Source of the DNA: Myxococcota bacterium
GTDB taxonomy: Bacteria > Myxococcota_A > UBA796 > CAJQPC01
Reading direction: 5' to 3'
DNA length: 64,000 nucleotides
NCBI GenBank assembly: GCA_036012755.1
Contig: DASCPX010000016.1
Coordinates: forward strand, 160,001-224,000
The stretch's first letter is position 1, and each line of letters starts with the position of its first letter. The notes beneath the pieces are model-generated. The model did not search any database. It was not told the DNA's origin and worked only from the letters and a program-made list of their open reading frames with translations. Both the position numbers and the translations under genes were made by a program. This document shows positions 970-59,013 of this stretch, piece after piece.

Positions 970-1710
970 TCACTTCGCCCGAGTCACGCAGATGCCGCTG
1001 CCCTCGAAGTGGACCGAGTTCGCGTTGCCCGAGTCGCAGGTGGAGCCCGAGTCGCTCGTGACGTGGTAGGCGGAGCAGCTCCCGGAGCGGTAGACCGGGC
1101 AGAAGTGGTGCATCTCGAGGGTGTTGTCGCCCTTCTCGAGCCAGAAGGTGCCGACGTAGATCAGCGAGGCGGGCGGTCCGCCGCCGTTGTCCGCGTCGCG
1201 CACGACCCAGTCGGAGCCGCAGTTGCCCCACCGAGGCGCCCCGCTGGGGTTCGCGCTGTTGGGGACGCGGTAGTAGGCGGACTCGTTGCGCTGGCTGGAG
1301 CCCGACTCGGCGATGTGCGAGCTGTAGATGTGGTACCAGGCAGAGGTGCCGGTGCTGACGGTGGCGTCCATCTGTGTCGGGTCCCAGGACAGGACGTAGA
1401 TCGAACTCGACGAGGTGGCCTTCGTGCCCCCGTCGCAGTCGTCGTGCCAGTCGCTCGGCGGGTCGCCGTTGGGTGGGTCTCCGAAGTCCCCGGGCGGATC
1501 GTCGTCGTCCGGAGGCTCGTCGTCGGGATCGTCCGTGTCGTCGTCCGGGACCTCCTCCTGCGGCAGGCTGTCGTGCAGGTGGTCCGTGTCACCGCCCTCT
1601 CCGCTGTCGTCGTACAAGCCGGGGGTGCGGACGGGGTGGTTGGGTTCACGGACGTCTTCCGGCGTGTGGACGCCGTAGTCCATGCAGGCGAGCAGGAGGA
1701 GACTGGACAT
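970..1710 (-). CDS. Putative lipoprotein with Asp/Pro-rich linker and Cys-containing beta-rich C-terminal domain
   Basis: Likely start MSSLLLLAC at 1710, behind AAGGAG. GC-biased third codon positions. Confidence 0.7.
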   Translation of the reverse strand: MSSLLLLACMDYGVHTPEDVREPNHPVRTPGLYDDSGEGGDTDHLHDSLPQEEVPDDDTDDPDDEPPDDDDPPGDFGDPPNGDPPSDWHDDCDGGTKATSSSSIYVLSWDPTQMDATVSTGTSAWYHIYSSHIAESGSSQRNESAYYRVPNSANPSGAPRWGNCGSDWVVRDADNGGGPPASLIYVGTFWLEKGDNTLEMHHFCPVYRSGSCSAYHVTSDSGSTCDSGNANSVHFEGSGICVTRAK

Positions 1711-1915
1711 GTCCGATCTCCTTCGCAAGCCCCGTGCCAGCTTCCAACATGGCAAGAACGCAGGGTTTTTCTCGCAGATCGGGACATTTTTATCGCGATC
1801 TGCGACCTCTTCGTCGCTGTAGTCGGGAGACTACATCTGGATCAAACGGTGCGGCTTCTGGTATACGCTCACGCGCCCTGGTCCGCGCTGAGCCGGGAGC
1901 CCCTTTGGAGGTCCC

Positions 1916-3460
1916 ATGCTCATCGTCCTCGCGCTCGCCTGCTCGGATCAGCAGCTACACCAGATGGTCGCAGGCTCCGGCGGCGAGGGACCGCAGATCC
2001 TCGTCGAGCCCGACCTTCTCGACTTCGGCACCCTGGACGCCGACGCGGATCCCGTGATGCAGACCTTCACGATCTCCAGCGTGGGGACAGAGGGTCTCGC
2101 GCTGAAGGAAGTGCAGCTCCGCGACGGCGACTACGCCAGCTTCGAGCTCCTCACAGAGGTCGAAGCCCACGCCATGGAGCCAGGCGAGAGCATCGCGATC
2201 GACGTGCTCTTCTACCCCTGGGGCAACGACCAGGAGGCTCGCGCGGTCGTCGTGAGCAACGACGAGGACACGCCGAACTGGCCGGTGGACCTCTTCGGCG
2301 ACGCGGACGTGCCGGAGCTGGACGTGGACCCGGATCCGCTGGATCACGGCGACATCGGGGTCGGCTGCGTGCGCGAGAACATCGCCACCATCACCAGCGT
2401 CGGCGCGGCGCCGGTGACCATCTCTGCACTGGAGGTCTCCGGAGACGGCTTCACCATGCTCTCTGGTCCCACCCTCCCGCTGACGCTTCAGCCCGGGGAG
2501 ACCGCCGAGGTCGACATCGAGTTCGCCCCCAGCGTGGTCTACGACTACGAGGGTGCCCTGGTTGTGACCTCGGACGAGGCGATGGGTGTGCGCGAGGCCC
2601 TGCAGCTCGGCTCCGGCGGCGTCGACGGCAGCTACACGGACGACTGGTACATCCCCGAGGGGGACCCGCCCAGCGACATCCTCTTCTCCGTCGACGCCAG
2701 CGGCTCGATGGGCGACGATCTCTGGGACCTCGCCCAGAACTTCGAGACCTTCATCACCGAGCTCGACAACTACACGAGCGACTGGCAGGTCATCATCGGG
2801 AGCAGCGACGACGGCTGCAACTCCGGCGGCATCCTCAAGCCCACCACGGCCAACTACATCCAGACCTTCAAGGACAACATCCTCTGGGGCGGCTTCTTCG
2901 CTGACTGGACAGAGGCGCTGTTGACCATCAACGTCAACGCGATCGAGAACACCGACAGCGGCGAGTGCAACTCGGGCTTCATGCGCGACGGGGCGCTCTT
3001 GCACATCATCGACGTGACCGACGAGCCCGAGCAGTCCGTCGAGATGGGCGGCCTGCCCTGGGACGAGAACGTCCAGAAGCTCTGGGACAAGAAGGGCAGC
3101 GCCAGCCACGTGCGCATCTCGGCCATCGCGGGGCCGGTGCCTGGTGGCTGCGACTCGGCCGATCCCGCCACCGGCTACGCAGAGGCGGTCACCGCCACCG
3201 GCGGCGTGTTCCTGTCCATCTGCGACGACTGGGCCAGCGCCGCGAACCTCGCCCTGTTGGCCGCCGCCAGCGTGAACCAGTCCACCTTCGAGCTCTCCAA
3301 CCCCGCTGTCGAGAGCACGATCATCGTGAAGGTCAACGGCACCGAGCGCTACGACTGGACCTTCGACGCCGGGCGCAACGTGGTCATCTTCGACGACGAC
3401 TACCCCTCTGGTGGAGACAAGGTCGTCATCCACTACGACGGCGTCGAGAGCTGCGACTGA
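1916..3460 (+). CDS. Lipoprotein with two Ig-like (ASH/choice-of-anchor D-like) repeats and a vWA domain
   Basis: GGAGG RBS; MLIVLALAC; 'LDFG...TISSVG..L...PGES' repeats; MIDAS-like DILFSVDASGSM; IDVTDEPEQS. Confidence 0.75.
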   Translation: MLIVLALACSDQQLHQMVAGSGGEGPQILVEPDLLDFGTLDADADPVMQTFTISSVGTEGLALKEVQLRDGDYASFELLTEVEAHAMEPGESIAIDVLFYPWGNDQEARAVVVSNDEDTPNWPVDLFGDADVPELDVDPDPLDHGDIGVGCVRENIATITSVGAAPVTISALEVSGDGFTMLSGPTLPLTLQPGETAEVDIEFAPSVVYDYEGALVVTSDEAMGVREALQLGSGGVDGSYTDDWYIPEGDPPSDILFSVDASGSMGDDLWDLAQNFETFITELDNYTSDWQVIIGSSDDGCNSGGILKPTTANYIQTFKDNILWGGFFADWTEALLTINVNAIENTDSGECNSGFMRDGALLHIIDVTDEPEQSVEMGGLPWDENVQKLWDKKGSASHVRISAIAGPVPGGCDSADPATGYAEAVTATGGVFLSICDDWASAANLALLAAASVNQSTFELSNPAVESTIIVKVNGTERYDWTFDAGRNVVIFDDDYPSGGDKVVIHYDGVESCD

Positions 3461-7337: not shown

Positions 7338-8300
7338 GTGCTCTTGCTGTTGCTCGCATGTGTCGCCAGCGGAACCACCTGGGTCGAGGTCGCCTCGCCC
7401 GCGCTCGATGCGGATCAGCAGCTGGCGCTCGAGCGGCTGAACCGCGTGCGCTCGGACCCCCCGAGCTGCGTCGACGACTTCGAGGCCCTCTTCGAGGAGG
7501 AGGAGGCCCGCAGTCCTCGACAGTGTGACGACAGCCTGCGGTCCACCGTGGGGCCGCTGCGCAAGGCCGAGTCCCGTCCCCCTCTGGCGCCGGTGAGCGC
7601 GCTGGTCGAGGTCGCAGAGGCCCACGCCACGGCCATGGCCACCGGCGGCTGGTTCAACCACGTCGATCCCCAGGGGATCGGCCCCAACGAGCGCCTCCGC
7701 CGGGCGGGGGTCGCCCTGGATGTGCGCGTGCCCTCCGACGGACGCGTGTACCTGTACGGGGCCGGGCAGCGGGACAACCAGGTGGAGTCGCTCTACTCCC
7801 GGTCGGCCTTCACCACCGGCGAGGTGGGCGATCCCGAGCTTCACGAGTGGTCCTCTGGCATCGACTCGCTGATCGTCGATCGCTGCGTGAACGGCCGGGG
7901 TCATCGGGACCACGTCCTCGGTCGCACCGTCCTCTCCGAGCAGGACCGCGAGGTCGGCATCGGCACGGCGACGGCGCTCGCCCAGCACCCCACCGATCCA
8001 CGCTTTGGCGGCTGGACCCTCCGGCTGGTGGTGCTCACCCGGGCTCGACTCGAGGGTGACTTCTTCCTGGTGGGATCGGTCTTTTCGGACAAGGACGGCG
8101 ACGGCCGCTACTCCGCCGGAGAGGGCCTCGGGGACGTGCTCGTGGAACTCGCCGAGCTCTCCATCCGCACAAGGACCGCCCCAGGCGGCGGCTTCGTGAT
8201 CCCCGTGCCCGACGGGACCCGCGGGACCCTCAGCGCCCAGACCACCTCTGTGGAGGTCGAGGTCTCCGGCGCCAACCTGTCGGTGCCGCTTCCGCTCTGA
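7338..8300 (+). CDS. CAP (SCP) domain lipoprotein with C-terminal carboxypeptidase-regulatory-like beta domain
   Basis: MLLLLLAC; AEAHATAM...FNH...RLRRAG; GHRDHVL...EVGIG; VGSVFSDKDGDGRY..GEGL. Confidence 0.75.
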   Translation: MLLLLLACVASGTTWVEVASPALDADQQLALERLNRVRSDPPSCVDDFEALFEEEEARSPRQCDDSLRSTVGPLRKAESRPPLAPVSALVEVAEAHATAMATGGWFNHVDPQGIGPNERLRRAGVALDVRVPSDGRVYLYGAGQRDNQVESLYSRSAFTTGEVGDPELHEWSSGIDSLIVDRCVNGRGHRDHVLGRTVLSEQDREVGIGTATALAQHPTDPRFGGWTLRLVVLTRARLEGDFFLVGSVFSDKDGDGRYSAGEGLGDVLVELAELSIRTRTAPGGGFVIPVPDGTRGTLSAQTTSVEVEVSGANLSVPLPL

Positions 8301-18587: not shown

Positions 18588-18697
18588 CCCAGAGTCAGGG
18601 TGCGCGCATGTCCGATCCAGCCGGGCTCCTGCAGCGCGTCCCCGAGTTCGCCCGGGGCTGCGGCAGCTGGCCCGACACCCTGACGTAGGATCGCTCC

Positions 18698-20599: not shown

Positions 20600-21177
20600 G
20601 GCTACTGGCGCTGGCCTGCCACCCGACGTCCGACGCTGAGCTCATCGCAGAGTCCATCGCAGAGCTCACGGCAGGCCGTCCGAAAGCCGCCGCGGCCATC
20701 TGCCTTCAGGTTTCGCAAACCCAGGCAGCGGCAGAGTGCGCGTGGAGCGTGGCCGCTGTCGTTGCCGAGAGCGATCCGGCAGCAGCCACAGCAATCTGCC
20801 GGACTCTCTCCGGGGCACACGCCGACGAGTGCGCATTCGTAGTGGCAGAGGCATCGCAAGACCCTGAGCTCTGCTCGGGCACCGGTGGACTCGAGGTGAA
20901 GTGCCAGCTCCACTTCTACAGGGACGGGCTGAGCGCATGGGTGCCTCCGGACGCCCGCGTCGGCCAGGTTGATGGGCTTGCGCAGGAACACATGACTGCG
21001 TTGGGGCTAGCGGTGGAGACCGAGGCCGCCTGGTTCAGGACCTACCGGTACGTCCTCGCCCACACGGCAGAAGACACCACCACCGAAGAATGTCAGACGC
21101 TTGGACCGATTCGCGCAAGGGCGTGTGAGCGAGCTCTGGAGATGGACCAGGCGCGCCCTGGCACGCACCGCCCCTAG
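20596..21177 (+). CDS. Cys-rich helical lipoprotein
   Basis: GTG start overlaps the upstream TGA (GTGA); MRLLALAC; repeated C-x8-10-C pattern. Confidence 0.65.
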   Translation: MRLLALACHPTSDAELIAESIAELTAGRPKAAAAICLQVSQTQAAAECAWSVAAVVAESDPAAATAICRTLSGAHADECAFVVAEASQDPELCSGTGGLEVKCQLHFYRDGLSAWVPPDARVGQVDGLAQEHMTALGLAVETEAAWFRTYRYVLAHTAEDTTTEECQTLGPIRARACERALEMDQARPGTHRP

Positions 21178-21473
21178 CCGCAGCTCTCGTACCACTCCGG
21201 GTCTTCGGGCTCCGGGAAGGGCTCGTCGGGGTCGATGCAGTTCTCTGTGTAGTCCTTCACCCACTCCTTGACCTCGGCGCGCGGCACCGGGCTCGGGTTC
21301 TCGGCGCAGGCCGCGTAGGGGCCCTCTTCGTAGAGCGCCATCCAGTCGTCCTGGCAGTCGCGCCAGGGTTGCTCCTGCTCGCACTTGCAGTGCGCCTTCG
21401 TGAGATCCGACCAGTAGTCGTCGACCGTGTAGGCGCAGGCCAGGAGGAGGAAGAGCACGGCGCCCACTAACAC
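21174..21473 (-). CDS. Small Cys-rich lipoprotein
   Basis: LFLLLAC lipobox-like; paired cysteines; start may be the later GTG. Confidence 0.65.
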   Translation of the reverse strand: MLVGAVLFLLLACAYTVDDYWSDLTKAHCKCEQEQPWRDCQDDWMALYEEGPYAACAENPSPVPRAEVKEWVKDYTENCIDPDEPFPEPEDPEWYESCG

Positions 21474-25254: not shown

Positions 25255-25295
25255 GGTGTCGGTCTATCCCACCGAGCGACCAGGAACTGACCGGG

Positions 25296-40671: not shown

Positions 40672-40770
40672 ATGCTCGCGTTCACGCTCCTGGCCTGCAC
40701 CGACGCCCTCATCGACGGCCTGCGAATCGACCTCGAGGGTGACCTCGCACCGACAACCCCGGAGGCTTGA
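40672..40770 (+). pseudogene. 32-aa mini-lipoprotein or collapsed lipoprotein remnant
   Basis: MLAFTLLACTDALIDGLRIDLEGDLAPTTPEA*; same short signal as other lipoproteins in the window; ends 1 nt before the next ATG. Confidence 0.5.
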
Positions 40771-45903: not shown

Positions 45904-47225
45904 GCTGGACCGGAGACCACCAGGGACTCGCGCTCTCGGATCAGCGGCGGAGCTGGACCTATTCCCAGCTCCGGGACGAGGCCGCGCGCTGGGCCGGCAC
46001 CCTCGCGGCCCGCGGCGTCGAGGCAGGAGACCGCGTGGCGCTGCTCGCCAGGAACCGCGGCGAGTTCATCGTCCTGCTGCTTTCCTGCGAGCACCTCGGC
46101 GCGATCTTCCAGCCGATGAACTGGAGGCTGTCCGAGGCAGAGCTCGACTGGCAGATCGCGGACTCGACCCCCCGAGTCGTGCTGCGCGACGCGGACCTCG
46201 ACGAGGGCCCCGGCGACGCGGCGATCCGCGGTGACGAGCGCGCCGAGACCGAGCCCTGGATGCTGCTCTACACCTCTGGCACGACCGGCAAGCCGAAGGG
46301 AGCCCTGATCACTCACGGGCAGGTCCGGGCCAACGCCGCGGTCACCCTCGGGGCCTGCGAGCTGACCGCCGAGGACAGCACGCTGACCTTCACGCCCCTG
46401 TTCCACACCGGCGGCCTGAACTGCCTCACGACGCCGCTGTTGCGCGTCGGTGGTCACGTGGTCCTGCGCCCCTCTCTGGAGGACGCGCTTGATGTCATCC
46501 GGGACGAGGGCATCACGCTGTTGACCGGCGTGCCGACGATCTACCAGTTCCTCTCCGAGCGTCCCGGCTTCTCCGAGGCGATGGGTTCTGTTCGGGACGC
46601 CCTCTGCGGCGGGGCCCCGCTGTCGCTGACGCTGCTCCAGACCTACCTCGAGCTCGGCATCCCGCTGCGGCAGGGCTTCGGCCTCACGGAGGTGGGGCCC
46701 AACTGCTTCTCCACGCCACCGCAGCGCGTGCGCGAGAAGCTCGGGACCGTCGGTCGACTCGTGCCCGGGCTGGAGGCCCGCCTCGTCGACGGCGAGCTTC
46801 AGCTGCGCGGCCCGATGGTCTTCGGCGGCTACTGGGGCCACCCTCCCCACGAGGGCTGGTTTCACACCGGCGACGTCCTGCAGGTCGACGACGAGGGCTT
46901 CTGGTCCGTCACAGGGCGCAAGAAGGAGATGTTCATCTCCGGCGGAGAGAACGTCTACCCGGCCGAGGTCGAGGCAGCGCTCTATGCCTGCGGCGGCATC
47001 GCCCAGTGCGCGGTCATCGGCGTGGAGGACGAGCGCTGGGGCGAGGTCGGACGAGCCTTCGTCGAGCCCAGTCCGGGGGCGACGCTCTCGCCAGAGGCTC
47101 TCCACGGTGCCCTCCAAGGACGCCTGGCCCGCTACAAGCAGCCCAAGCGCATCGAGGTGCTGGCTTCGCTGCCCCGCACTCCCAGCGGCAAGATCGACAA
47201 GCAGCGACTCGGAGAGATGCCGTGA
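45900..47225 (+). CDS. Acyl-CoA synthetase (AMP-binding, FadK/MenE-like)
   Basis: YTSGTTGKPKG; PLFHTGG; QGFGLTE; FHTGD; GRKKEMFISGGENVYPAEVE; SGKIDK. Confidence 0.92.
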   Translation: MSWTGDHQGLALSDQRRSWTYSQLRDEAARWAGTLAARGVEAGDRVALLARNRGEFIVLLLSCEHLGAIFQPMNWRLSEAELDWQIADSTPRVVLRDADLDEGPGDAAIRGDERAETEPWMLLYTSGTTGKPKGALITHGQVRANAAVTLGACELTAEDSTLTFTPLFHTGGLNCLTTPLLRVGGHVVLRPSLEDALDVIRDEGITLLTGVPTIYQFLSERPGFSEAMGSVRDALCGGAPLSLTLLQTYLELGIPLRQGFGLTEVGPNCFSTPPQRVREKLGTVGRLVPGLEARLVDGELQLRGPMVFGGYWGHPPHEGWFHTGDVLQVDDEGFWSVTGRKKEMFISGGENVYPAEVEAALYACGGIAQCAVIGVEDERWGEVGRAFVEPSPGATLSPEALHGALQGRLARYKQPKRIEVLASLPRTPSGKIDKQRLGEMP

Positions 47226-47704
47226 TCCTGCTCCTTCTGGCCTGCCTTCCAGAGGATGTCGCGCTCGACGACTCCGTCCCGGTCCTCGACGACACCGCCG
47301 CCGCGAGCACCGAGCCCCTCTACGGCCAGTGGATCTCCGACGGAGCGGACATCAGCCCGCTGTTTTCCGGCGCACCCTTCGAGTACCTGAGCATCGACGC
47401 TGTCTTCGGGGACGAGGGCTACGAGGTGGTCGGCCACACGGCAGACGACGACTACACCTTCGCCGGGACCTTCACGATCGACACCTCGAGCACTCCAGCC
47501 TCGATCGAGCTCATCCAGACCCAGCCCGGAAACGCCGTGGCCCGGGGCATCTACCTCGTCGAGGACGAGGTGCTCACCTACGAGGTCGTCCAGGTCGAGC
47601 CGGACTATGGCTACGCGCCCCCGACCCCGGAGGAGGGCTTCGGCTCCACCACCGGCCCCAACCTCTCAGAGGGCGACAACGTGCAGGTCTACCGCAGACC
47701 GTGA
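47222..47704 (+). CDS. Small beta-rich (lipocalin-like?) lipoprotein
   Basis: GTGA-coupled; MILLLLAC; LYGQW motif; beta-strand pattern. Confidence 0.7.
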   Translation: MILLLLACLPEDVALDDSVPVLDDTAAASTEPLYGQWISDGADISPLFSGAPFEYLSIDAVFGDEGYEVVGHTADDDYTFAGTFTIDTSSTPASIELIQTQPGNAVARGIYLVEDEVLTYEVVQVEPDYGYAPPTPEEGFGSTTGPNLSEGDNVQVYRRP

Positions 47705-49119
47705 TCTGGATCTGTGCCGCATTCGCGCGAGAGCCGGTCGAGGCCCTGAGGCCCGTCGAGGAGCCCCCGGATGTGGGCCTCGACTTCGTGGGGCTCGCCC
47801 AGGTCAAGACCTCGGGCACGAACGTGGCCACCACGAACGCCTTCCTCGATGGGCAGGTCATCGGCGTGATCGACGGGGACTCGGGCGCAGACGCCGGGGA
47901 CTCCCTGAGCCACTTCAGCGAACAGCGCGTGGCGGCTTTTCTGGGCTACCGTCCGCCGCTGTTGGATGGCCACGCGGCCCTTCACGGCGGCTTCGAGATC
48001 GACTTCGCCTTTGGAGACGCCGCCTACGGCATCGGGGGCAACACCGGCGGCGGCTTCGGCGGCGACCAGGTGAACCTCCAGACCCGCCGCCTCTACGTCG
48101 AGGTCGACAGCCAGCTCTTGCGACACGAGCAGGACTGGAGGGTGGGCCTGCACTTCGTGAGCGACGGCGTCGGACTCCCGGAGGAGGGCCTCGACGCCAT
48201 CTTCCGCAGCGGAGCACGCGGCACGGTCTTTGCCAGCGAGGCAGCCGGCGCCTCGCTCCACGGGCAGCTCCCCGAGCGCTTGCGATACAGGCTCGGGGTC
48301 TACAAGCTCGTCGAGAACGCCAGCTCGCAGCCGGACGACGTCACCCTGGGCATGGGGGATGTCGAGCTGCAACCCGGCTGGCGCACGCGGGTGGGCCTGC
48401 ACGCCTGGTACCTGCGAGATCGCTCGGATGGCCAGGGCGGCGCCCTGGGCGTGGGGCCTTCATCCTCGACCTCGGCGCTCCAGGGGGGCCCCTCTCTGGA
48501 CGTCGATGGGGACGTAGACGTCACCTGGCTGGGGGCCGACGCCGGCTGGAACGCGGACCTGCGCCGCGGTGACCTCGGAGCCCACGGCGTCGCCTTGGCT
48601 CACCTCGGCTCCCTCGGCGACGTCGACGCCCAGGGCTTCAGCGCCAACGGCGAGGCCCGCTGGCGTTGGACCGCGGGCAAGGGCAGCGTGCTCCGGGCAG
48701 AGGTCCTCTATGCCACTGGCGATTCCGTGTCTGATGTCGGCTACACCGGCGTCCTCACCGGAAACACCTGGGGCATCGCGGGGGCCAACCACACCACCCA
48801 CGGCACCCTGTTGCTGCACCCGGATCTCTTCTCTATCAACCGCCAGGTGAGCCACACCGGCGACCTGGCGGCCTCTGGGCGGGGCCAGCTCAGCTTCACC
48901 GGGTCACTGGGCTACGACCCCGTCCCAGACCGCCTGACCGTCCAGTTCGGCGGTGGTCACGCGAGCTATGGCGGCGGGACCTCGGCCCAGGAGATCAACC
49001 TCCGGGTGCTCGGCGAGCCCTACCTGTTCATGCGGACCGGTCTCTCCGGCGCCTACCTCGCGAGGCCGGGCACGGACGCCTGGATCGTCTACGCCTCCTT
49101 CGACTGGCTGGTGATCTGA
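47701..49119 (+). CDS. Putative outer-membrane beta-barrel (porin/channel)
   Basis: GTGA-coupled; MIWICAAFA; amphipathic strands; FEIDFAFGD...NLQTRRLY; aromatic-rich end YASFDWLVI. Confidence 0.72.
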   Translation: MIWICAAFAREPVEALRPVEEPPDVGLDFVGLAQVKTSGTNVATTNAFLDGQVIGVIDGDSGADAGDSLSHFSEQRVAAFLGYRPPLLDGHAALHGGFEIDFAFGDAAYGIGGNTGGGFGGDQVNLQTRRLYVEVDSQLLRHEQDWRVGLHFVSDGVGLPEEGLDAIFRSGARGTVFASEAAGASLHGQLPERLRYRLGVYKLVENASSQPDDVTLGMGDVELQPGWRTRVGLHAWYLRDRSDGQGGALGVGPSSSTSALQGGPSLDVDGDVDVTWLGADAGWNADLRRGDLGAHGVALAHLGSLGDVDAQGFSANGEARWRWTAGKGSVLRAEVLYATGDSVSDVGYTGVLTGNTWGIAGANHTTHGTLLLHPDLFSINRQVSHTGDLAASGRGQLSFTGSLGYDPVPDRLTVQFGGGHASYGGGTSAQEINLRVLGEPYLFMRTGLSGAYLARPGTDAWIVYASFDWLVI

Positions 49120-50048
49120 TGCCCCTGAACGCCTTGTTCTTCGGCCTGGCCTGCGCGCCCCGGTATGGCTCCGCGCCACCGCTGGCGCCATCCGAGCTCC
49201 ACGCGCCCCTCCCCGTGTCCCACGTCGATCTCGACGGTGTCCGTGTCGCCTACGCGAGCGCAGGGGAAGGCACGGCCCTGGTCTTCCTGCACGGCCTGTC
49301 CTCCTACATGGGCTACTGGGAGCACCAGCTCCCACACTTCGCACAGTCCCACCAGGTCTTCGCGCTCGACCTCCCGGGCTACGGGATGTCGTCACGCCCG
49401 GACGCGCCCTACACGCCTCCCTGGTTCGCCCAGACGGTGGTGGACTGGATGGACGAGGTGGGCTTGTCCTCAGCGGTCTTCGTGGGCCACTCGATGGGCG
49501 GACAGGTCGCCCTGACCCTCGCGCTCGAGCACCCAGAGCGTGTAGACGCCCTCGTGCTCGCTGCCCCCGCCGGAATCGAGACCTTCTCTCCGGGCGCCGC
49601 TGACTGGATGAAGGGCTGGTGGACCGAGTCCAGGGCCATGGAGTCCACGGAAGAGGACATCCGCGCCACGATGACCACCATGGTGTTCAACGTCCACGAC
49701 GAGGGCGTCGAGCGGCTCATCGAGGAGCGGGTTCGGCTGGGTCGTCACGAGGACTTCGGCGGCACCTCGGTGGCCGTCTCCCGCAGCATCGCGGGCATGC
49801 TCGACCACCCGGTCGCCGGGCGCCTGTCCGAGGTCTCCGCCCCGACGCTCATCGTCTTCGGCGAGGACGATCGCATGATCCCGAACCCGGTCTTCACCGG
49901 CGGCCGCACCTCGGCCATCGCGAAGCAGGGGCAGCGGTCCATTCCGGGCTCCTCGCTGGTCCTGGTCCCGAGGGCCGGCCACACCGTGCACCACGACGAC
50001 CCCGGCGCATTCAACGACGCAGTCGAGCGCTTCCTGGAGGGCCTGTGA
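49119..50048 (+). CDS. Alpha/beta hydrolase lipoprotein
   Basis: FFGLAC; FLHGL; DLPGYG; GHSMGG; GEDDRMIP; AGH. Confidence 0.88.
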   Translation: MPLNALFFGLACAPRYGSAPPLAPSELHAPLPVSHVDLDGVRVAYASAGEGTALVFLHGLSSYMGYWEHQLPHFAQSHQVFALDLPGYGMSSRPDAPYTPPWFAQTVVDWMDEVGLSSAVFVGHSMGGQVALTLALEHPERVDALVLAAPAGIETFSPGAADWMKGWWTESRAMESTEEDIRATMTTMVFNVHDEGVERLIEERVRLGRHEDFGGTSVAVSRSIAGMLDHPVAGRLSEVSAPTLIVFGEDDRMIPNPVFTGGRTSAIAKQGQRSIPGSSLVLVPRAGHTVHHDDPGAFNDAVERFLEGL

Positions 50049-51721
50049 TCTGGATCGCGACCGCGCTGGCGACCACCGACTTCACCGGTACGCCCGTCAC
50101 CACCTACACCGGCGAGGAGACCTTCCTCCAGGACGGCTCCGTGCAGCTGTGGGGGCAGATCGAGCTCCACGAAGACGGAGACCGCCTGCTGTTTGTGCAA
50201 GAGGACTTCAACGACTCGCTGGAGTGGCCAGCGGACAGCGACTGGGCTCCGTGGATCCACCAGATGTTCGGCACGGGGGACCCTCACTCCTCGAACTTCC
50301 TGCTGCACTCGGCCCCGCTGGAGCCCATCTCGGAGGGCACGCCCATCCTGCTCGTCCCCGGGGCCGGAGACAACGGCAGCCGTGGCTTCATCGTGATGGC
50401 CTCGCGCCTGGACGGCAGCGGGCGGCCCGTGTTCGTCCTGACCTTCGCCCACCCCCACGGCGATGTCTTCATGCAGGCCGAGATCGTAGCGGATGCCATC
50501 GAGCGCATCAGACAGCGGCGAGGCGTCTCCCAGGTCGACGTGGTAGGCCACAGCAAGGGAGCCATCGCCGCCGCCGTCTACGCCAGCAACCACTCTTCGG
50601 CCTCCTGGCCGAGCAGCGCCTATGAGCAGGTCGGGACCGAATATGCGAACGATATTCGCCGGTTCGTTGCGATCGGTGCTCCCCTGGACGGCATCGACAC
50701 CGCCTACCGGTGGCCGGCCCAGAACTGGCTCTCTCTGGAGAGCGACGAGGCCTTCTCGCCCTCGTCCTGGAGCACCTACTACCCCTACACGACTGCCAAC
50801 CTGTACGTGACGCAGGACCTCTCCGAGCAGGACCACCTCTCTGATGGGGGCGACCTCTTTCCAGGCCACCGCCAGCTGCTTCGGCGCCAGGCGCACGCCC
50901 TGCCGGGTGAGTCCTTCCTCGGTCCGTACTCGGTCCAGCAGGACTGGTACACGACCTACGAGGGCGGCCTTGGCTACGTCAGCTGGAGCGAGGGCATCGA
51001 CGCGGCCATCGACGACGCCGGCGACTTGCTGGCGGCGCTCGAGGAAAACGGCGTCGATCCAGAGGTCGAGCTCTTCGTGCTCGCCGGAGAGAACCCGCTC
51101 TTGCACAACGGCGCTGAGTACCAGTGGATCGCAGCCTTTGGAGAGAGCTGGGTGGACGTGGCCACCGCTGGCCTCGACGCGTGGGCCGAGCTGCTGGCAG
51201 AGGCCGCGGAGGAGGCTGGAGTCGTGGACATCGACCCGGACGAGCTCCGTGGGCTGGTGCAGGGCAAGCTCGTGCTCGGCGAGATCAGCGGGCCCTCCGA
51301 CGGCCTGGTGTTCCTCTCCAGCGCGACGCGGGTCGAGACCCTCACCGGCCGAGGAGCGAGCGTCGGAGAGCTCCGCGTGGTCGACCTGGCCCACCTCGAT
51401 CTGCTCTATGCCTCTGAGATCACCGGACAGATCCTCATCGACGCCGGCGAGGCCGATCCAACGGAGGACGGCTGGATGCGGGCCGTCGGCGAGCGGTATG
51501 TCGAGGCGGACACCCTCGGCTGGGTCGAGACGGTCCTCGCCGATCCCGACACCGACGAACCCGACATCGACGACACGGGGTTCGTCGAGGACGACGACCC
51601 TGGCGATCCGGACGGCTCCGGGCGCCTTGCCCGCAACTGTGATGGATGCGCCAGCGGCACCGGGGCCCTCGGCGCGGCCTGGCTGGGGCTCCTGGTGCTG
51701 CGGAGGAGACGATGGAGTTGA
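50045..51721 (+). CDS. Secreted lipase/esterase-like hydrolase with MYXO-CTERM-like sorting tail
   Basis: MIWIATALA; PILLVPG; VGHSKG; SDGLV; AHLDL; C-terminus CDGCASG...WLGLLVLRRRR. Confidence 0.8.
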   Translation: MIWIATALATTDFTGTPVTTYTGEETFLQDGSVQLWGQIELHEDGDRLLFVQEDFNDSLEWPADSDWAPWIHQMFGTGDPHSSNFLLHSAPLEPISEGTPILLVPGAGDNGSRGFIVMASRLDGSGRPVFVLTFAHPHGDVFMQAEIVADAIERIRQRRGVSQVDVVGHSKGAIAAAVYASNHSSASWPSSAYEQVGTEYANDIRRFVAIGAPLDGIDTAYRWPAQNWLSLESDEAFSPSSWSTYYPYTTANLYVTQDLSEQDHLSDGGDLFPGHRQLLRRQAHALPGESFLGPYSVQQDWYTTYEGGLGYVSWSEGIDAAIDDAGDLLAALEENGVDPEVELFVLAGENPLLHNGAEYQWIAAFGESWVDVATAGLDAWAELLAEAAEEAGVVDIDPDELRGLVQGKLVLGEISGPSDGLVFLSSATRVETLTGRGASVGELRVVDLAHLDLLYASEITGQILIDAGEADPTEDGWMRAVGERYVEADTLGWVETVLADPDTDEPDIDDTGFVEDDDPGDPDGSGRLARNCDGCASGTGALGAAWLGLLVLRRRRWS

Positions 51722-52441: not shown

Positions 52442-53674
52442 TCAATATTGCTCGATGTTTTCATCGATCCAGGCCAGGCGCGCGGGGATCCACTCCCGGA
52501 TCTTCTCAACCTCTGCGTCGTAGTCTTCGACCACGGGCAGGTAGCCTCCGAGGAAGTCGATGTCGTCCCAGACCCAGACCTCGAAGTTCTCGTAGGCGGC
52601 GTCACCGAGGAGCTCGCGCTGGGCCTCGAAGCGCGCCAGGGCTGCCTCGTCGGACAGCGTGCCCTCGCGGAGCTCGAACCAGCGCGCCGCCAGGGCCTCT
52701 GAGAAGCCCTCTGCGCTGGTCATCCTCGCCACCCACGTCGGTCTGTACAGGATCCAGCCGGTCGGCACGACGTTGTCGTTGTAGGTCGGCTGGCCGAAGG
52801 TGAGGTCGAGGTCCCAGGGGGTGAAGGCCATCAGGCCGGAGGCGTCCCGCCACAGGTGCACGCTCAGGTAGTAGGCGTCGTTGTTCTTCATGAACTCCTG
52901 CAAGAGCACGAAGTCGATCGCCGAGTCCCGATCGAGCACGTCGAAGATGGCGTCGGGATCGTCCAGGATCGCCGCCTGCCAGGAGGCGAGGATCTGTTGG
53001 ATGGCGCTGATCTCCTCGGTGGTCGGCGCCTCTGGGTGGACGGGCGCCCAGGTGCCGAAGCCGACAGCGTCGTTCGGGTAGATCCCGCCCTGGTCGTCGA
53101 GCTTCAGCACGAAGCCCTCTTCGTCGATGTCGATGCGGGCGGCGTCCCGCTTGACCCGCTCGACCAGGAAGTAGATGCCCCAGTCGGCTCCGTCCAGGCG
53201 CAGCTGGCAGGTGCGGCTCTCTGGCCCGTAGTGCTCGGGGCTCCAGTCCTGGTACAGATCGTAGCCGTACTTGTTCCGCGTCAGGGCCCGGTCGATCCAG
53301 GCACCGTTGAGCACCCAGTCGCTCTCTGCGCCCATGCCGAAGAGATCGACCTCGAGGGCCTCTCCGTCCCTGCGCAGCTCGACGGCGTACTGCTTCTTCG
53401 GGAAGCCAGAAGAGCTCCGCCCGCGGATCTCGACCCCTGCCTCCCCGTCGAAGAGCACGAGCCCCTCGGCGTCGGCGATCTCGAGATCACAGTCGATCTT
53501 CGGCTCGTCGGGGATCGCCTGTCCGCAGTCCAGCTCGATGCGGCAGATGCCCTCCGCGACGCCCGGGACGTCCTCGACTCCGCTGTCGTCCGGGTCCTCG
53601 ATGGGGATGGAGTCGGAGTCCACCGGCAGCGAGGGCACGCTCGGGTCGGTGCAGGACAACAAGGCGAGGACCAT
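52442..53674 (-). CDS. CotH kinase family lipoprotein
   Basis: MVLALLSC; IRGRSS..FPKKQY; ESDWVL; DRALTRN; G.Y..VE; KNND; PWDLDLTFG. Confidence 0.88.
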   Translation of the reverse strand: MVLALLSCTDPSVPSLPVDSDSIPIEDPDDSGVEDVPGVAEGICRIELDCGQAIPDEPKIDCDLEIADAEGLVLFDGEAGVEIRGRSSSGFPKKQYAVELRRDGEALEVDLFGMGAESDWVLNGAWIDRALTRNKYGYDLYQDWSPEHYGPESRTCQLRLDGADWGIYFLVERVKRDAARIDIDEEGFVLKLDDQGGIYPNDAVGFGTWAPVHPEAPTTEEISAIQQILASWQAAILDDPDAIFDVLDRDSAIDFVLLQEFMKNNDAYYLSVHLWRDASGLMAFTPWDLDLTFGQPTYNDNVVPTGWILYRPTWVARMTSAEGFSEALAARWFELREGTLSDEAALARFEAQRELLGDAAYENFEVWVWDDIDFLGGYLPVVEDYDAEVEKIREWIPARLAWIDENIEQY

Positions 53675-54241: not shown

Positions 54242-54916
54242 TCAGTCTTCGGCCGGGCTCGCGAAGTAGGCGTCGAGCCCCGCGTCCACCGCCCGGGCGA
54301 AGCGGTCCATCGTCTCCTCCTGCTGCCAGGCCTCGACCTCGGCGGGATCCCAGGCGTGGTGGGTCTCGATGATCACGCTCGGCATGGTCGGGCGGCGCAG
54401 CATGCGAAGCCCTCGCCGATCGAGGAAGACGCCGGGGGTCCCTTCCGCGTCGTAGGCGGCCTTGTAGTCGCGGCCGTCGTAGGCCACGAAGTCCTCGGCG
54501 AGCATCCCGTCTGCCAGCGAGCGTGCGAGGCGCAGACGCCCGTCCCGATCCTCTGGCTCGTCGGAGACCAGGATGGTGAAGCCGGGGTGGCCCAGGTTGC
54601 GCATGCACCCATCGACCTCGACGCCCTCCGACGTGGCCCGGGCGTCGGAGTGGAGCGACAGGAAGACCTCTGCGTCCCCTGCTGACGCCACCCGCTCGGC
54701 GTAGCCCGTCTGGTCCTCGCCCTCGCGGGTGAGGCGGACCTCGTACTCGGGCTCCAGGCGCTCCTCGAGCTCCAGGGCCACCCGGAGCATCTCGTCCTGC
54801 TCGGAGAGGCAGGTGGCGCCTGTGTTCCCGGGGTTGTCGGGCTCGCCGTGGCCGGGGTCGATGAGCACGCGGTGGGGACTGGCGAGAGCGACGGGGATCA
54901 GCAGGAGCATGGACAC
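54242..54916 (-). CDS. N-acetylmuramoyl-L-alanine amidase (Amidase_3)
   Basis: VLIDPGHG; E; LTR; FLSLHSDA; PSVIIET. Confidence 0.88.
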   Translation of the reverse strand: MSMLLLIPVALASPHRVLIDPGHGEPDNPGNTGATCLSEQDEMLRVALELEERLEPEYEVRLTREGEDQTGYAERVASAGDAEVFLSLHSDARATSEGVEVDGCMRNLGHPGFTILVSDEPEDRDGRLRLARSLADGMLAEDFVAYDGRDYKAAYDAEGTPGVFLDRRGLRMLRRPTMPSVIIETHHAWDPAEVEAWQQEETMDRFARAVDAGLDAYFASPAED

Positions 54917-57147: not shown

Positions 57148-58322
57148 AGCTGAACCTCCGGAACTACGCGCGCATCGCCCGGGCCGCAGCGACCCGGAAG
57201 GTCCCGGTCTACGCCCACTTCGGCATCACCCATCGCTGCGATCTGACCTGCAAGATGTGCGGCATCTGGCGCTACGGGAACAAGAAGGAAGAGCTCTCGA
57301 TCGACCAGATCAAGCAAATGGCCGCGCGCATGCGGCGGCTCGGGGTGGTCCAGATCTCGATCGGCGGCGGCGAGCCCTTCGCCTGCGAGGAGATCGAGTG
57401 GGCGGCGAAGGCCTTCGTGGACGAGGGCCTCACCGTGCGGGTCCTCACCAACGGCGTGAACGTGACGACCGAGCGGCTCGACCGCGCGATCGACTTCGGC
57501 GTCAAGAACTTCAGCATCTCGCTGGACAGCCTCTACCCGGTCCGCTTCGACTACATCTGCGAGGTCGAAGGCAGCTGGGACAGGGCCGTCCGCAACATGG
57601 TCTACCTCAGCGACAAGCTGCGCGGCTCCGGCGGCATGCTGATCCTGAACTGCGTGGTCTCGAACCTGAACCTCGAGGAGTGCCCCGACATCGTGCGCTT
57701 CGCGAAGGAGCTGGGCTTCGCGGTCAGCTTCCTCCCCATCGAGCTCCTCCCCGACGCCAAGGCCGGGGTGCGGAACTGGGAGGCCCGCTTCATCCGCTAC
57801 CGCCCGGAGATGGGCCTGGAGGCCGGACCCCAGGACGACGTCACCGGGCGCATCGACCGCGCCTACGACACGCTGATCCGGATGAAGAAGGAGGGCTGGC
57901 CGGTCCTGAACTCCACGCCGTATCTCGAGTCCAGCCGCGTCTACTTGAAGACCGGTCGCTTCCCGGCGGACGGCTGTGACGCCGGCGCGCTGTACTTCTC
58001 GATCTCGCCCAACGGCCAGTTCACCATCTGCCACCGCACCTCGCACGGCTACAAGCACTTCCTCGACCCGGACTTCGAGGAGTTCTTCCGCTCCGTCGAG
58101 TACGACTACAAGCGCAAGATGGAAGCCGGCGCTTGCGAGGGCTGCATGCGGGCCTGCTGGATCGACACGAGCTCCATGTTCCGCACCCTCGAGGGCTTCT
58201 TCGAGACCGCCCAGCTCAACCTGAGACCGCAGCTGGGGACTCCCTGCACCCTCGACGAGGCGATGGCCTGGGCGAGGTACGACGGCGTCGACATCGTCCC
58301 CGGAAAGGTCTCCGCCAAGTAG
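57144..58322 (+). CDS. Radical SAM / SPASM-twitch protein
   Basis: GTGA-coupled; CDLTCKMC; GGGEP; TNG; ISLDS; CDAG...ICH...CEGCMRAC. Confidence 0.9.
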   Translation: MKLNLRNYARIARAAATRKVPVYAHFGITHRCDLTCKMCGIWRYGNKKEELSIDQIKQMAARMRRLGVVQISIGGGEPFACEEIEWAAKAFVDEGLTVRVLTNGVNVTTERLDRAIDFGVKNFSISLDSLYPVRFDYICEVEGSWDRAVRNMVYLSDKLRGSGGMLILNCVVSNLNLEECPDIVRFAKELGFAVSFLPIELLPDAKAGVRNWEARFIRYRPEMGLEAGPQDDVTGRIDRAYDTLIRMKKEGWPVLNSTPYLESSRVYLKTGRFPADGCDAGALYFSISPNGQFTICHRTSHGYKHFLDPDFEEFFRSVEYDYKRKMEAGACEGCMRACWIDTSSMFRTLEGFFETAQLNLRPQLGTPCTLDEAMAWARYDGVDIVPGKVSAK

Positions 58323-58326
58323 GTCC

Positions 58327-59013
58327 TCAGAAGAGCTCGCCGCGAACGCCCGCCGAGACGAGGAACCCGCGGTACGTCGCCCAGTCGGTCTCTGGCGCGT
58401 AGCCGCCCATCGCCCGGACGAACCACGAGCCGTGGTCGTAGGTGTAGCCAGCGACCGGCGTCAGCCCGAGCAGTCCGAGGCGGGCCCGATGCCCGCCGTA
58501 GATGACCGACAAACCGAGCTCCTGGAACTCGCCGCGGGCGGGATCCCAGTAGCGCTCGCCGTCCCAGTCGGACTCCCAGCTGTGGGCGGCGAAGGGCGTT
58601 CGGGTCGCATCGACAACGACGCGCTCGCCCCCCGCTTCGAGGGCCCAGCCGATGCCGATGCCGGTGCGATCGTCGTACTCGTCGCTCTCGGAGAGCTTCA
58701 GCCAGGCGCCGCTCTGGAGGTGGAAGCCGAAGCGGATGTGCTCCTGGTCCACGATCAGGGTGCGCACTCCGAAGTGTGGGAGGACGCCCATGTCGTAGTC
58801 GTCGTAGGCGAGCCCGATCGTCAGCGTCGCGCGATCGTGGAGGTCGACGTGGGTCTCCAGCAGCCCCCCCTCGAAGCGCGCGCGGGTGGAAGAGTCGGTC
58901 ACCTGGAAGCCGGTCACCGAGGCTGTGACCTCGCCGTCGCTACCGGGCGCGGCGCCTACGAGGAAGGCGCCGGAAGGCACGGCGGCACCTGCAAGAGAGA
59001 CCCACAACAACAT
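58327..59013 (-). CDS. Hypothetical exported beta-rich protein
   Basis: MLLWVSLAGA; beta-strand pattern; ends SAGVRGELF. Confidence 0.65.
   Translation of the reverse strand: MLLWVSLAGAAVPSGAFLVGAAPGSDGEVTASVTGFQVTDSSTRARFEGGLLETHVDLHDRATLTIGLAYDDYDMGVLPHFGVRTLIVDQEHIRFGFHLQSGAWLKLSESDEYDDRTGIGIGWALEAGGERVVVDATRTPFAAHSWESDWDGERYWDPARGEFQELGLSVIYGGHRARLGLLGLTPVAGYTYDHGSWFVRAMGGYAPETDWATYRGFLVSAGVRGELF

What the first reader, a model, noticed from the sequence alone, without database searches (positions are those of the whole stretch)
970..59013. Window-wide ultra-short signal peptides, nearly all without a basic n-region
Seen, lipoprotein-like: MLIVLALAC (1916), MLLLLLAC (7338), MLLILLSC (18698), MRLLALAC (20596), MLLLFLAC (26539), MTLALLWAC (27822), MLLLLMAC (27870), MPLLLALFAC (33440), MILASLAC (38756), MLAFTLLAC (40672), MILLLLAC (47222), MVLALLSC (53674). 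Seen, SPase I-like: MILLVASAFA, MIWICAAFA, MIWIATALA, MLLWVSLAGA. Starts are constrained by an in-frame TAG directly before 27870, by GTGA/ATGA overlaps, or by being the first possible start codon. The mature domains (CotH, FG-GAP, CBM, CAP, barrels) are extracytoplasmic. Established: Sec and lipoprotein signals are usually about 15-30 aa with a basic n-region. Inference: this lineage uses a non-canonical minimal export or lipidation signal, implying altered Sec/SRP, Lgt or LspA recognition.
Basis: partly seen in the sequence, partly recalled or inferred. Interest (0 to 1): 0.8.

Follow-up and report, generated by a model that had tools for sequence, protein, structure and literature searches.

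The report
Ultra-short uncharged export signals, clade-wide
In this uncultured marine myxobacterium and some of its relatives, most exported and lipid-anchored proteins begin with a signal of only about 7 to 13 greasy residues and no positive charge, roughly half the textbook length, which calls for a direct test of how little a bacterial export signal needs.

Summary
All claimed N-termini are in the window, and seven have an in-frame stop 0-24 nt upstream.

Genome-wide, measured from the first possible start codon, the lipobox Cys peaks at residue 8. It lies at residues 7-12 in 521 of 5389 genes, against 0.5% at internal start-like codons. With a pattern that does not force it, only 15 of 331 such leaders hold K/R.

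- **Starts are real:** Shine-Dalgarno sites, leaderless-type -10 boxes at exactly -12, absent upstream coding signal and an independent metagenome assembly all support them.
- **The proteins are export-type:** BamA, OmpA-family proteins, an amidase and a sulfatase carry such leaders, while orthologues in related genera keep Arg-bearing leaders.
- **Long leaders persist:** Tat-type leaders and a minority of canonical ones coexist in the genome.
- **Spread:** a DNA proxy is dense only in parts of two to three families of one order, among 401 genomes of the phylum.
- **Machinery:** no trait-linked change appeared in LspA, Lgt copy number or SecY.

Five literature searches found no description. 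The scan had already noted this on this genome and on other Myxococcota.

The parts
970..1710 (-). Lipoprotein-like gene, leader MSSLLLLAC from the ATG at 1710. An upstream TTG at 1755 would instead give a 24-residue Arg-rich leader, so the start is ambiguous.
   Evidence: Shine-Dalgarno site AAGGAGA at -12 of the ATG at 1710 and none before the TTG. Coding score begins 18 codons after the TTG. No Pfam hit.
1916..3460 (+). Lipoprotein-like gene, leader MLIVLALAC (Cys 9), with Ig-like domains.
   Evidence: TGA 24 nt upstream and GGAGG at -9. Pfam HYDIN/VesB-like Ig, 7.1e-12.
7338..8300 (+). Lipoprotein-like gene, GTG start, leader M/VLLLLLAC (Cys 8).
   Evidence: TAG 18 nt upstream and TACCTT at -12. 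No Pfam hit at E <= 0.01, so the CAP claim is not confirmed.
18698..20599 (+). Lipoprotein-like gene, GTG start, leader VLLILLSC (Cys 8), with MopE metal-binding repeats and FG-GAP repeats.
   Evidence: TAG 9 nt upstream, inside TAGGAT at exactly -12. Pfam MopE 8.5e-24 and FG-GAP 4.2e-10. The start region is identical in an independent run, X2.
20596..21177 (+). Lipoprotein-like gene, GTG start overlapping the previous stop (GTGA), leader VRLLALAC (Cys 8, one Arg).
   Evidence: No Pfam hit. My gene caller did not pick this ORF.
21174..21473 (-). Small lipoprotein-like gene, leader VLVGAVLFLLLAC (Cys 13).
   Evidence: TAG 15 nt upstream.
26539..27105 (+). Lipoprotein-like gene, GTG start, leader VLLLFLAC (Cys 8), with a TPR repeat.
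   Evidence: TAG 9 nt upstream. Pfam TPR_14, 6.1e-5. A contig of run X2 covers 24924-27693 with one difference, at 25579.
27106..27822 (-). Lipoprotein-like gene, leader MTLALLWAC (Cys 9), with an Asp/Ser/Thr-rich repeat after the Cys.
   Evidence: GAGGAGG at -12 to -9. No start codon in the 462 nt open upstream.
27870..29030 (+). Lipoprotein-like gene, leader MLLLLMAC (Cys 8). This is the most tightly constrained start in the window.
   Evidence: TAG directly before the ATG and GGAGG at -9. MopE motif, 2e-4. A contig of run X2 covers 27664-28000 with 0 differences.
32097..32498 (-). Counter-example: a canonical 23-residue lipoprotein leader, MGVVVKIRTLIGGAALVAMALAC.
   Evidence: It shows that long basic leaders coexist with the short ones.
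33440..34006 (+). Lipoprotein-like gene, GTG start, leader VPLLLALFAC (Cys 10).
   Evidence: TAG 24 nt upstream and GGAG at -9.
35710..37389 (-). SPase I-like leader VILLVASAFA|AEL, GTG start overlapping the stop of the sulfatase gene.
   Evidence: Coding score begins at this start. No Pfam hit.
37386..38756 (-). Sulfatase lipoprotein, leader MILASLAC (Cys 8). The ATG overlaps the stop of the upstream membrane-protein gene.
   Evidence: The Pfam Sulfatase domain (1.2e-41) begins at residue 20. Orthologues in 30 relatives range from 8-residue uncharged leaders to canonical Arg-bearing ones.
40672..40770 (+). 32-aa ORF starting MLAFTLLAC. A possible mini-lipoprotein, not a full-size gene.
   Evidence: Stop after 32 codons. 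GC3 is 0.84. The next gene's Shine-Dalgarno site and ATG follow at 40772.
47222..47704 (+). Lipoprotein-like gene, GTG start, leader VILLLLAC (Cys 8), 160 aa.
   Evidence: Coding score begins about 2 codons before this GTG inside a longer open frame. GGAG at -11.
47701..49119 (+). SPase I-like leader VIWICAAFA, GTG in a GTGA overlap with the previous gene.
   Evidence: No Pfam hit.
49119..50048 (+). Alpha/beta-hydrolase lipoprotein, leader MPLNALFFGLAC (Cys 12).
   Evidence: Pfam Abhydrolase_1, 1.2e-27. Coding score begins at this ATG.
50045..51721 (+). SPase I-like leader VIWIATALA, GTG in a GTGA overlap, GGAGG at -9.
52442..53674 (-). CotH-family lipoprotein, leader MVLALLSC (Cys 8).
   Evidence: TGA 9 nt upstream. 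Pfam CotH, 3.7e-42.
54242..54916 (-). N-acetylmuramoyl-L-alanine amidase with a 12-residue SPase I-like leader, VSMLLLIPVALA|SPH.
   Evidence: The Amidase_3 domain (6.3e-22) begins at residue 17. TAG 9 nt upstream, inside TAGGCT at -12.
58327..59013 (-). SPase I-like leader MLLWVSLAGA. A GTG 7 codons upstream is also possible.

Best explanation
These are real translated N-termini that serve as Sec-type export signals. Most are lipoprotein (SPase II) signals of Met, about six mostly Leu residues and Cys. A smaller set are SPase I signals of about 10-15 residues ending in A-x-A.

The basic n-region has been lost and the hydrophobic core is about half the usual length. The trait belongs to part of one order of uncultured Myxococcota, not to this window.

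Inferred, not shown: the ordinary SecYEG/SecA/SRP, Lgt, LspA, Lnt and LepB enzymes encoded in the genome handle these leaders. Three things may make up for the missing parts:
- the very Leu-rich core;
- the free N-terminus;
- the strongly acidic exported proteins, whose acidity is not specific to the region next to the leader.

Also inferred: having no charge may be what lets so short a leader reach the Lgt, LspA and LepB active sites at the outer face of the membrane. Tat substrates and a minority of Sec substrates keep full-length leaders.
For: **Starts.**
- The Cys position measured from the longest possible N-terminus peaks at 8.
- 262 of 521 short-leader genes have the in-frame stop within 30 nt of the start.
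- 309 of 521 have a Shine-Dalgarno site, or TANNNT at -13 to -11, or both. TANNNT at exactly -12 occurs in 78 of 521, against 0.09% of internal sites.
- In-frame upstream DNA has GC3 of 0.63, against 0.885 in coding sequence.
- An independent run of another study reproduces 18001-28000 with 0-1 differences per contig piece and no listed indel at any start.

**No charge.** K/R occurs in 15 of 331 leaders under an unforced pattern, against 18% at control sites.

**Export.**
- BamA begins MIHLLLAFWIALAQ|SG, and OmpA-family proteins begin MLQLLIGLAQA|QS and MLAVLLWIGVAEA|QD.
- The Amidase_3 domain starts at residue 17 and the sulfatase domain at residue 20.
- BamA and sulfatase orthologues in sister genera and families carry Arg-bearing leaders of 18-28 residues in front of the same mature start.

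**Machinery present.**. The LspA catalytic motifs are intact.

**Internal control.** 30 Tat-like N-termini were matched, most of them 20-35 residues long with a twin-arginine motif, though some rows are not plausible Tat signals.

**Core composition.** The core averages 6.0 residues, 49% Leu, mean hydropathy 2.54. In 40 canonical control leaders it averages 12.0 residues, 27% Leu, 2.14.
Against: - No protein-level or RNA-level evidence: cleavage, lipidation and location are untested.
- In E. coli, loss of the N-terminal positive charge is reported to need a longer hydrophobic stretch. I saw only the title of Hikita and Mizushima 1992, in the reference list of PMC5427057. Here the stretch is shorter, so ordinary machinery may not suffice.
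- The acidity of the early mature region (-2.86 per 20 residues) equals that of internal segments of the same proteins (-2.68). It is therefore not a local compensating feature.
- The SPase I-like class is only about 3-fold enriched with my pattern: 173 of 5389 genes against 1.1% of control sites.
- My gene calls come from a home-made codon-score caller and include some wrong ORFs.
Confidence: 0.68

Rival explanations
1. The short leaders work only because the clade has changed or added recognition machinery. Candidates are a specialised LspA, Lgt or LepB paralogue, an altered SecY, SecA or Ffh, or an unknown targeting factor.
For: - The leaders break both parts of the E. coli rule, charge and length together (title seen).
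- The genome has two tandem lspA genes and two tandem lgt genes in one operon, five Lgt homologues in all, and three S26 peptidases.
- SecB was not found in a genome that is 95.95% complete.
Against: - LspA is present in one or two copies and Lgt in 3-6 copies in trait-poor and trait-rich relatives alike.
- The LspA active-site region and its loop insertion are alike in 23 sequences of both kinds.
- 0 SecY columns have a residue shared by >= 80% of 14 trait-rich genomes and found in <= 15% of 23 trait-poor ones.
- Canonical and Tat leaders are still used in the same genome.
- SecA, Ffh, YidC, LepB and gene-content differences were not compared.
Confidence: 0.2
2. The hydrophobic N-termini are not cleaved signals. 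They act as short uncleaved membrane tethers, or the proteins reach the envelope by another route.
For: - A core of about six residues is too short to span a bilayer.
- Nothing here shows cleavage.
Against: - The lipobox and A-x-A motifs sit exactly where the cleavage sites of orthologues with canonical leaders lie.
- Lgt, LspA, Lnt and S26 peptidases are encoded.
Confidence: 0.07
3. The starts are wrong. The true starts lie upstream through non-canonical codons, stop-codon read-through, recoding or assembly frameshifts, giving normal leaders.
For: - 135 of 519 short-leader genes have no in-frame stop within 30 codons upstream.
- At least 143 further genes have an open upstream extension.
- One window gene, 970-1755, is truly ambiguous.
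Against: - 384 of 519 have at least one in-frame stop within 30 codons upstream, and all three stop codons occur there.
- Upstream in-frame sequence lacks the coding signal.
- Shine-Dalgarno sites and -10 boxes sit at fixed spacing to these starts.
- The gaps between stop and start in the window hold no start or near-cognate codon (my reading of the printed codons).
- An independent assembly agrees.
- Tat leaders are found at full length by the same procedure.
Confidence: 0.03

Closest known systems
Canonical bacterial lipoprotein (Sec/SPase II) signal peptides, E. coli Lpp type
   Same: - A lipobox of the L-[A/S]-[G/A]-C type directly before the mature protein. The motif is as stated in the review PMC9360617, passages read.
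- Lgt, LspA and Lnt are encoded.
- A flexible Pro/Asp/Gly-rich linker follows the Cys.
   Different: - No positively charged n-region: K/R in 15 of 331 leaders. The review describes the n-region as positively charged.
- The Cys sits at residues 7-12, with the mode at 8. The PROSITE-type rule, recalled and not checked here, expects about 15-35.
- The hydrophobic core averages 6.0 residues, against 12.0 in 40 control leaders.
Canonical Sec/SPase I signal peptides
   Same: - A hydrophobic core followed by A-x-A and a polar mature start, often Q-D or A-E.
- Found on BamA and OmpA-family proteins.
- S26 peptidases are encoded.
   Different: - Total length is about 9-15 residues, with the mode at 11.
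- K/R occurs in 2 of 173 leaders. The pattern itself forbids charged residues in the core, so this figure is largely forced.
Engineered E. coli signal peptides without N-terminal positive charge (Hikita and Mizushima 1992, J Biol Chem 267:12375)
   Same: Export signals that function without a basic n-region.
   Different: There the loss of charge is compensated by a longer hydrophobic stretch. I saw only the title, in the reference list of PMC5427057, and did not read the paper. Here the stretch is shorter but richer in Leu.
Tat (twin-arginine) signal peptides, including Tat lipoproteins
   Same: They are present in the same genome, and some end in a lipobox, so the same LspA and Lgt must accept both kinds.
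   Different: The short leaders have no RR motif and no n-region. Most of the 30 Tat-like N-termini matched here are 20-35 residues long.
Type IV pilin / archaeal class III signal peptides (recalled; 'extremely short signal peptide' in PMC2913515 seen only as a search hit)
   Same: A very short N-terminal leader.
   Different: As I recall, in those the short leader is charged and is cut before the hydrophobic segment, which stays in the mature protein. Here the short leader is itself the hydrophobic segment. I did not test this.

Membership tests
Bacterial lipoprotein signal peptide (Sec/SPase II) | A lipobox [LVI][ASTVI][GAS]C at the end of the leader. | tested here: met
   331 genes have such a box with Cys at residues 7-12, against 25.7 expected from internal sites.
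Bacterial lipoprotein signal peptide (Sec/SPase II) | A positively charged n-region, with at least one K/R near the N-terminus. | tested here: not met
   K/R before the lipobox occurs in 15 of 331 leaders under an unforced pattern. The n-region is described as positively charged in PMC9360617.
Bacterial lipoprotein signal peptide (Sec/SPase II) | Lipidated Cys at about residue 15-35 (PROSITE-style rule, recalled). | tested here: not met
   The mode is residue 8, measured from the first possible start codon. A minor second mode lies at 16-25.
Bacterial lipoprotein signal peptide (Sec/SPase II) | Modification and cleavage enzymes Lgt, LspA and Lnt present. | tested here: met
   - Lgt: 5 matches.
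- LspA: 2 matches with the GNxxDR and FNxAD motifs intact.
- Lnt: 246.6 bits.
Bacterial lipoprotein signal peptide (Sec/SPase II) | Diacylglyceryl transfer to the Cys and cleavage before it. | not testable with these tools
   This needs proteomics, acyl labelling or LspA-inhibitor assays.
Sec/SPase I signal peptide | Tripartite n-h-c structure with a basic n-region and a length of about 18 residues or more (recalled). | tested here: not met
   - The leaders of BamA, BamD and four OmpA-family proteins are 11-15 residues with no K/R.
- The pattern class peaks at 11 residues.
Sec/SPase I signal peptide | Small residues at -3 and -1 (A-x-A) before a polar mature start. | tested here: inconclusive
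   - The pattern itself limits -3 to A/V/S/T/G and -1 to A/G/S, so small residues there are forced.
- Within that limit Ala dominates: 108 of 173 at -3 and 137 of 173 at -1.
- The class is only about 3-fold enriched over internal sites.
Tat signal peptide | A twin-arginine motif in the n-region. | tested here: not met
   The short leaders have no Arg pair. Separate Tat-like N-termini exist in the genome, 30 matched.

The most novel reading that the evidence does not exclude
Part of one order of uncultured Myxococcota has rewritten the grammar of Sec-type signals. Hundreds of proteins per genome are exported, and most of them lipidated, using leaders of Met plus about six Leu-rich residues with no charge.

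That is well below the accepted minimum for both charge and hydrophobic length. Either the universal Sec/Lgt/LspA machinery tolerates far less than the textbook says, or the clade carries an unrecognised adaptation.
Probability: 0.6. Interest if true: 0.85.

Novelty: new variant of a known kind. Interest (0 to 1): 0.77.

Why it matters
- **Rules and predictors.** The rules for signal peptides, namely a basic n-region, a hydrophobic core of about 7-15 residues and Cys at about residue 15-35, underlie every predictor and much engineering. A clade that breaks them on hundreds of proteins would set a natural lower bound for what SecYEG, Lgt, LspA and LepB can recognise.
- **Annotation.** The envelope proteome of these abundant uncultured bacteria is probably under-annotated.
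- **Engineering.** It would offer very short secretion and lipidation tags.
- **A natural experiment.** Sister genera with and without the trait allow a search for whatever permits it.

Tried and rejected
- **RNA evidence.** No RNA holder was listed for 18001-28000, so starts could not be checked at transcript level.
- **The search for related loci with LspA and UvrB.** Both returned loci scattered over many phyla. They were useless for placing the lineage and served only as negative controls.
- **Sampling 11-60 kb per relative.** This was too small. G033 showed 0 short leaders in 60 kb yet has 44 pattern hits genome-wide. I replaced it with a whole-genome DNA pattern.
- **Acidic early mature region as a local compensator.** Rejected: the net charge is the same as in internal segments, and it is the same in short-leader and long-leader proteins.
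- **LspA loop insertion as a trait marker.** Rejected: it is shared across the order.
- **LspA and Lgt copy number.** No link to the trait.
- **SecY trait-specific columns.** None found. A few negative-set fragments were over-long ORFs and may be the wrong frame.
- **Leaderless transcription as a cause.** Rejected: the -10 pattern excess is as strong in trait-poor genus g3 as in g1 and g4.
- **Loss of deformylase.** Rejected: two deformylase-like genes were found by recalled motifs.
- **'No K/R' as an artefact of my first pattern.** My first lipobox pattern forced that result. I repeated the count with an unforced pattern.
- **Literature.** Five searches found no paper on genome-wide ultra-short bacterial signals. 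The library lacks most subscription journals.
- **Not done.** The complex-prediction job for LspA with a short leader was not sent. SignalP was not available.

Full report
**The observation in the window.** The window is 67-71% G+C and lies on contig C16 of a 6.73-Mb, 250-contig assembly.

Walking upstream in frame gives a stop directly before the ATG at 27870. Stops lie 9 nt before 18698, 26539 and 53674, 18 nt before 7338, and 24 nt before 1916 and 33440. No ATG, GTG or TTG lies in between, and by my reading of the printed codons no CTG, ATT, ATC or ATA either.

The four SPase I-like N-termini are at 37389(-), 47701(+), 50045(+) and 59013(-). Three of them start in GTGA overlaps with the preceding gene.

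Corrections:
- 40672 opens only a 32-codon ORF.
- 20596 has an Arg at residue 2.
- 970-1755 is ambiguous between a TTG start, which gives a 24-residue Arg-rich leader, and the ATG at 1710, which has the Shine-Dalgarno site.
- 32097-32498 carries a canonical 23-residue basic leader.

Pfam confirms CotH, FG-GAP plus MopE, a sulfatase whose domain begins at residue 20, Amidase_3 beginning at residue 17, an Ig-like domain and an alpha/beta hydrolase. It finds no CAP domain at 7338.

**Genome-wide test.** I called 5478 genes with a codon-score caller trained on the genome's own long ORFs. It makes some errors. For each gene I took the first ATG, GTG or TTG after the upstream in-frame stop, which is the longest possible N-terminus.

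- The lipobox Cys then peaks at residue 8 and lies at residues 7-12 in 521 of 5389 genes. At 76652 internal in-frame start-like codons the figure is 383, or 0.5%.
- That first pattern forbade charged residues near the Cys, so I repeated the count with a bare lipobox. This gave 331 genes with Cys at 7-12 against 25.7 expected. Only 15 of the 331 have K/R before the box, against 18% at control sites.
- The same count shows a second, smaller mode at Cys 16-25: 126 genes against 27 expected, mostly with K/R. Many of these look like short leaders with an open upstream extension.
- I therefore estimate, by eye, that about four in five lipoprotein-type leaders are ultra-short. This is not a computed count.
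- The hydrophobic core averages 6.0 residues and 49% Leu. In 40 canonical leaders from control loci it averages 12.0 residues and 27% Leu.
- Very hydrophobic residues 2-8 occur in 493 of 5389 genes, against 1.7% of internal sites.
- An A-x-A pattern class of 173 genes peaks at 11 residues but is only about 3-fold enriched.

**Are the starts real?**
- The stop lies within 30 nt of the start in 262 of the 521 genes.
- 384 of 519 have at least one in-frame stop within 30 codons upstream.
- Upstream DNA read in frame has GC3 of 0.63 and a negative codon score, against 0.885 and a positive score inside the genes. Read-through or recoding therefore has no support.
- A Shine-Dalgarno core lies at -17 to -5 in 217 of 521, against 15% of internal sites.
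- TANNNT lies at exactly -12 in 78 of 521, against 0.09% of internal sites. It is preceded by G at -14 in 64% of cases, which is the geometry expected of leaderless transcripts.
- In all, 309 of 521 have one or both signals, counting TANNNT at -13 to -11.
- Contigs of an independent metagenome run from another study cover 18001-18919, 19298-21533 and 22425-28000 with 0-1 differences per piece. No indel is listed at any start.
- The same procedure recovers Tat-like N-termini: 30 matched, most of them 20-35 residues long with a twin-arginine motif and including Tat lipoproteins, though some rows are not plausible Tat signals. So the procedure does not truncate N-termini as a rule.

**Are the proteins exported?** Universal envelope proteins carry the short leaders.
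- BamA begins MIHLLLAFWIALAQ|SG.
- A BamD homologue begins MFALLLTLSLPAVAA|KNQ.
- OmpA-family proteins begin MLQLLIGLAQA|QS and MLAVLLWIGVAEA|QD. Each of these starts at or within a few codons of the first possible start.

Orthologue series show the change directly.
- **BamA.** Leaders are uncharged and 13-17 residues long in genera g1 and g4 and in family f4. In family f7 they are 13 residues with no basic n-region but one Lys near the cleavage site. They are Arg-bearing and 22-28 residues long in g2, g3 and g8, with Arg also in f2, f3 and f5. In 12 of the 30 loci the N-terminus was not resolved in the stretch I printed.
- **The window's sulfatase.** Leaders are 8-10 residues and uncharged in g1 (3 of 3 genomes), g4 (4 of 4), g7 (3 of 3) and one f4 genome. 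They are 13 residues without K/R in two g3 genomes. They are canonical with Arg in several f2 and f5 genomes.

**Spread of the trait.** A DNA pattern for Met/Val, five codons with T at the second position, then [A/G/S] and Cys hits the own genome 93 times (13.8 per Mb). It hits 0 times in 1.3 Mb of other phyla.

- Within the GTDB family, genera g1 and g4 have 59-116 hits per genome, g6 has 34 and g2 has 36. Genera g7, g3, g5, g8 and g9 have 2-17. The reversed-pattern control gives 0-3.
- Among 401 genomes of the phylum, 4 or more hits per Mb occur only in the own order. These are four of the 12 family-f1 genomes sampled (own g1 genome, two g4, one g6), 10 of 12 genomes of family f7, and one of three genomes of f6.
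- None of the 341 genomes outside the order reaches that density (densities are my arithmetic on rounded genome sizes).
- The proxy sees only one exact form. It misses Trp-rich or 13-residue leaders such as those of g7 and g3, so the trait is graded rather than all-or-none.
- The nearest named records are MAGs labelled Myxococcota. Runs holding this DNA are marine or seawater metagenomes.

**Machinery.**
- The genome encodes one SecY, one SecA, one Ffh, one Lnt and three S26 peptidases. It has two tandem LspA genes followed by two tandem Lgt genes, and five Lgt homologues in all. SecB was not found.
- Both LspA copies align with solved LspA structures and keep the GNxxDR and FNxAD motifs.
- A loop insertion between those motifs is shared by 23 LspA sequences from trait-rich and trait-poor genomes alike.
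- Lgt has 3-6 matches in all 41 relatives. LspA has one or two in 40 of 41.
- In 41 SecY sequences, no column has a residue shared by >= 80% of 14 trait-rich genomes and found in <= 15% of 23 trait-poor ones.
- The leaderless -10 signature is as strong in trait-poor genus g3 as in g1 and g4.
- Nothing I could test ties the trait to changed machinery. SecA, Ffh, YidC, LepB and gene content were not compared.

**How it most likely works.**

Shown: short, uncharged, Leu-rich leaders ending in a lipobox or A-x-A sit on export-type proteins, at real start codons, in a defined clade.

Inferred: they enter the ordinary Sec route and are processed by Lgt, LspA and Lnt, or by LepB.

Also inferred: the missing charge may be what allows so short a segment to sit in the outer half of the membrane, where these enzymes act. 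The dense Leu core may supply the hydrophobicity that length normally provides.

The acidic character of the exported proteins (D+E about 20%, K+R about 6%) may help translocation. It is not specific to the region next to the leader.

This departs from the E. coli result that loss of N-terminal charge needs a longer core. I saw only the title of Hikita and Mizushima 1992. That contrast keeps the altered-machinery rival alive.

[quoted passage not shown] Five full-text searches returned no paper on genome-wide ultra-short bacterial signals. The library lacks most subscription journals.

The scan itself had already noted the same thing on two other pieces of this genome and on three other Myxococcota genomes. 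One of those notes warned that a search pattern can force the 'no charge' result, which led to the unforced recount.

Noticed in passing
genome-wide; in the window at 7338, 18698 and 54916(-): A promoter-like TANNNT, often TAGNNT with G at -14, sits exactly 12 nt before the start codon in 248 of 2238 genes with constrained starts. This suggests many leaderless mRNAs. It also explains why TAG is the commonest in-frame stop just upstream (135 of the 262 close stops). The pattern excess is seen across the family, including genera poor in the trait.
   Followed up: partly
G000 contig C59:99943-102645 (loci L001-L005): An operon of two tandem lspA genes followed by two tandem lgt genes. The genome holds five Lgt homologues, and relatives of the order hold 3-6 each.
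   Followed up: partly
L001:1444-2037 and L001:2051-2569 (both LspA copies): Compared with solved LspA structures, both copies carry an insertion of about 9-13 residues between the two catalytic Asp motifs. The insertion is shared by most of the 23 LspA sequences of the order that I examined, and is shorter in two.
   Followed up: partly
window 40672-40770: A 32-codon ORF with a short lipobox leader and coding-like GC3 lies directly before an alpha/beta-hydrolase gene whose Shine-Dalgarno site sits inside the ORF's end. It may be a mini-lipoprotein or an upstream ORF.
   Followed up: no
G000 contig C149:39842-40597: The BamD (YfiO) homologue has no lipobox Cys. It begins MFALLLTLSLPAVAA|KNQ, so it looks like a soluble or SPase I-processed protein and not a lipoprotein.
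   Followed up: no
window 18669-19336: The MopE-repeat part of the FG-GAP lipoprotein draws 10-40 times more metagenome contig depth than its flanks. It also draws many joints and loose ends, so it is a repeat shared with many other genes or organisms.
   Followed up: no
window 27106-27822(-): The mature N-terminus is a long Asp-Ser/Asp-Thr repeat (DADTDSDSDSDADSDTDSDTDS...). Similar repeats follow the Cys in other short-leader proteins, for example at C59:95118-96062.
   Followed up: no
genome-wide: Short-leader proteins are very acidic along their whole length: D 11.7%, E 8.7%, K 1.2%, R 4.5%. The proteome averages D 7.3%, E 7.0%, K 2.0%, R 8.0%.
   Followed up: partly
genome-wide: SecB was not found in this genome, which is 95.95% complete.
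   Followed up: no
window 38753-40051(-): The membrane protein encoded just upstream of the sulfatase starts MRRDRWLLASLVVGLVL. Basic residues before a first transmembrane segment are therefore kept where a real membrane anchor is needed.
   Followed up: no
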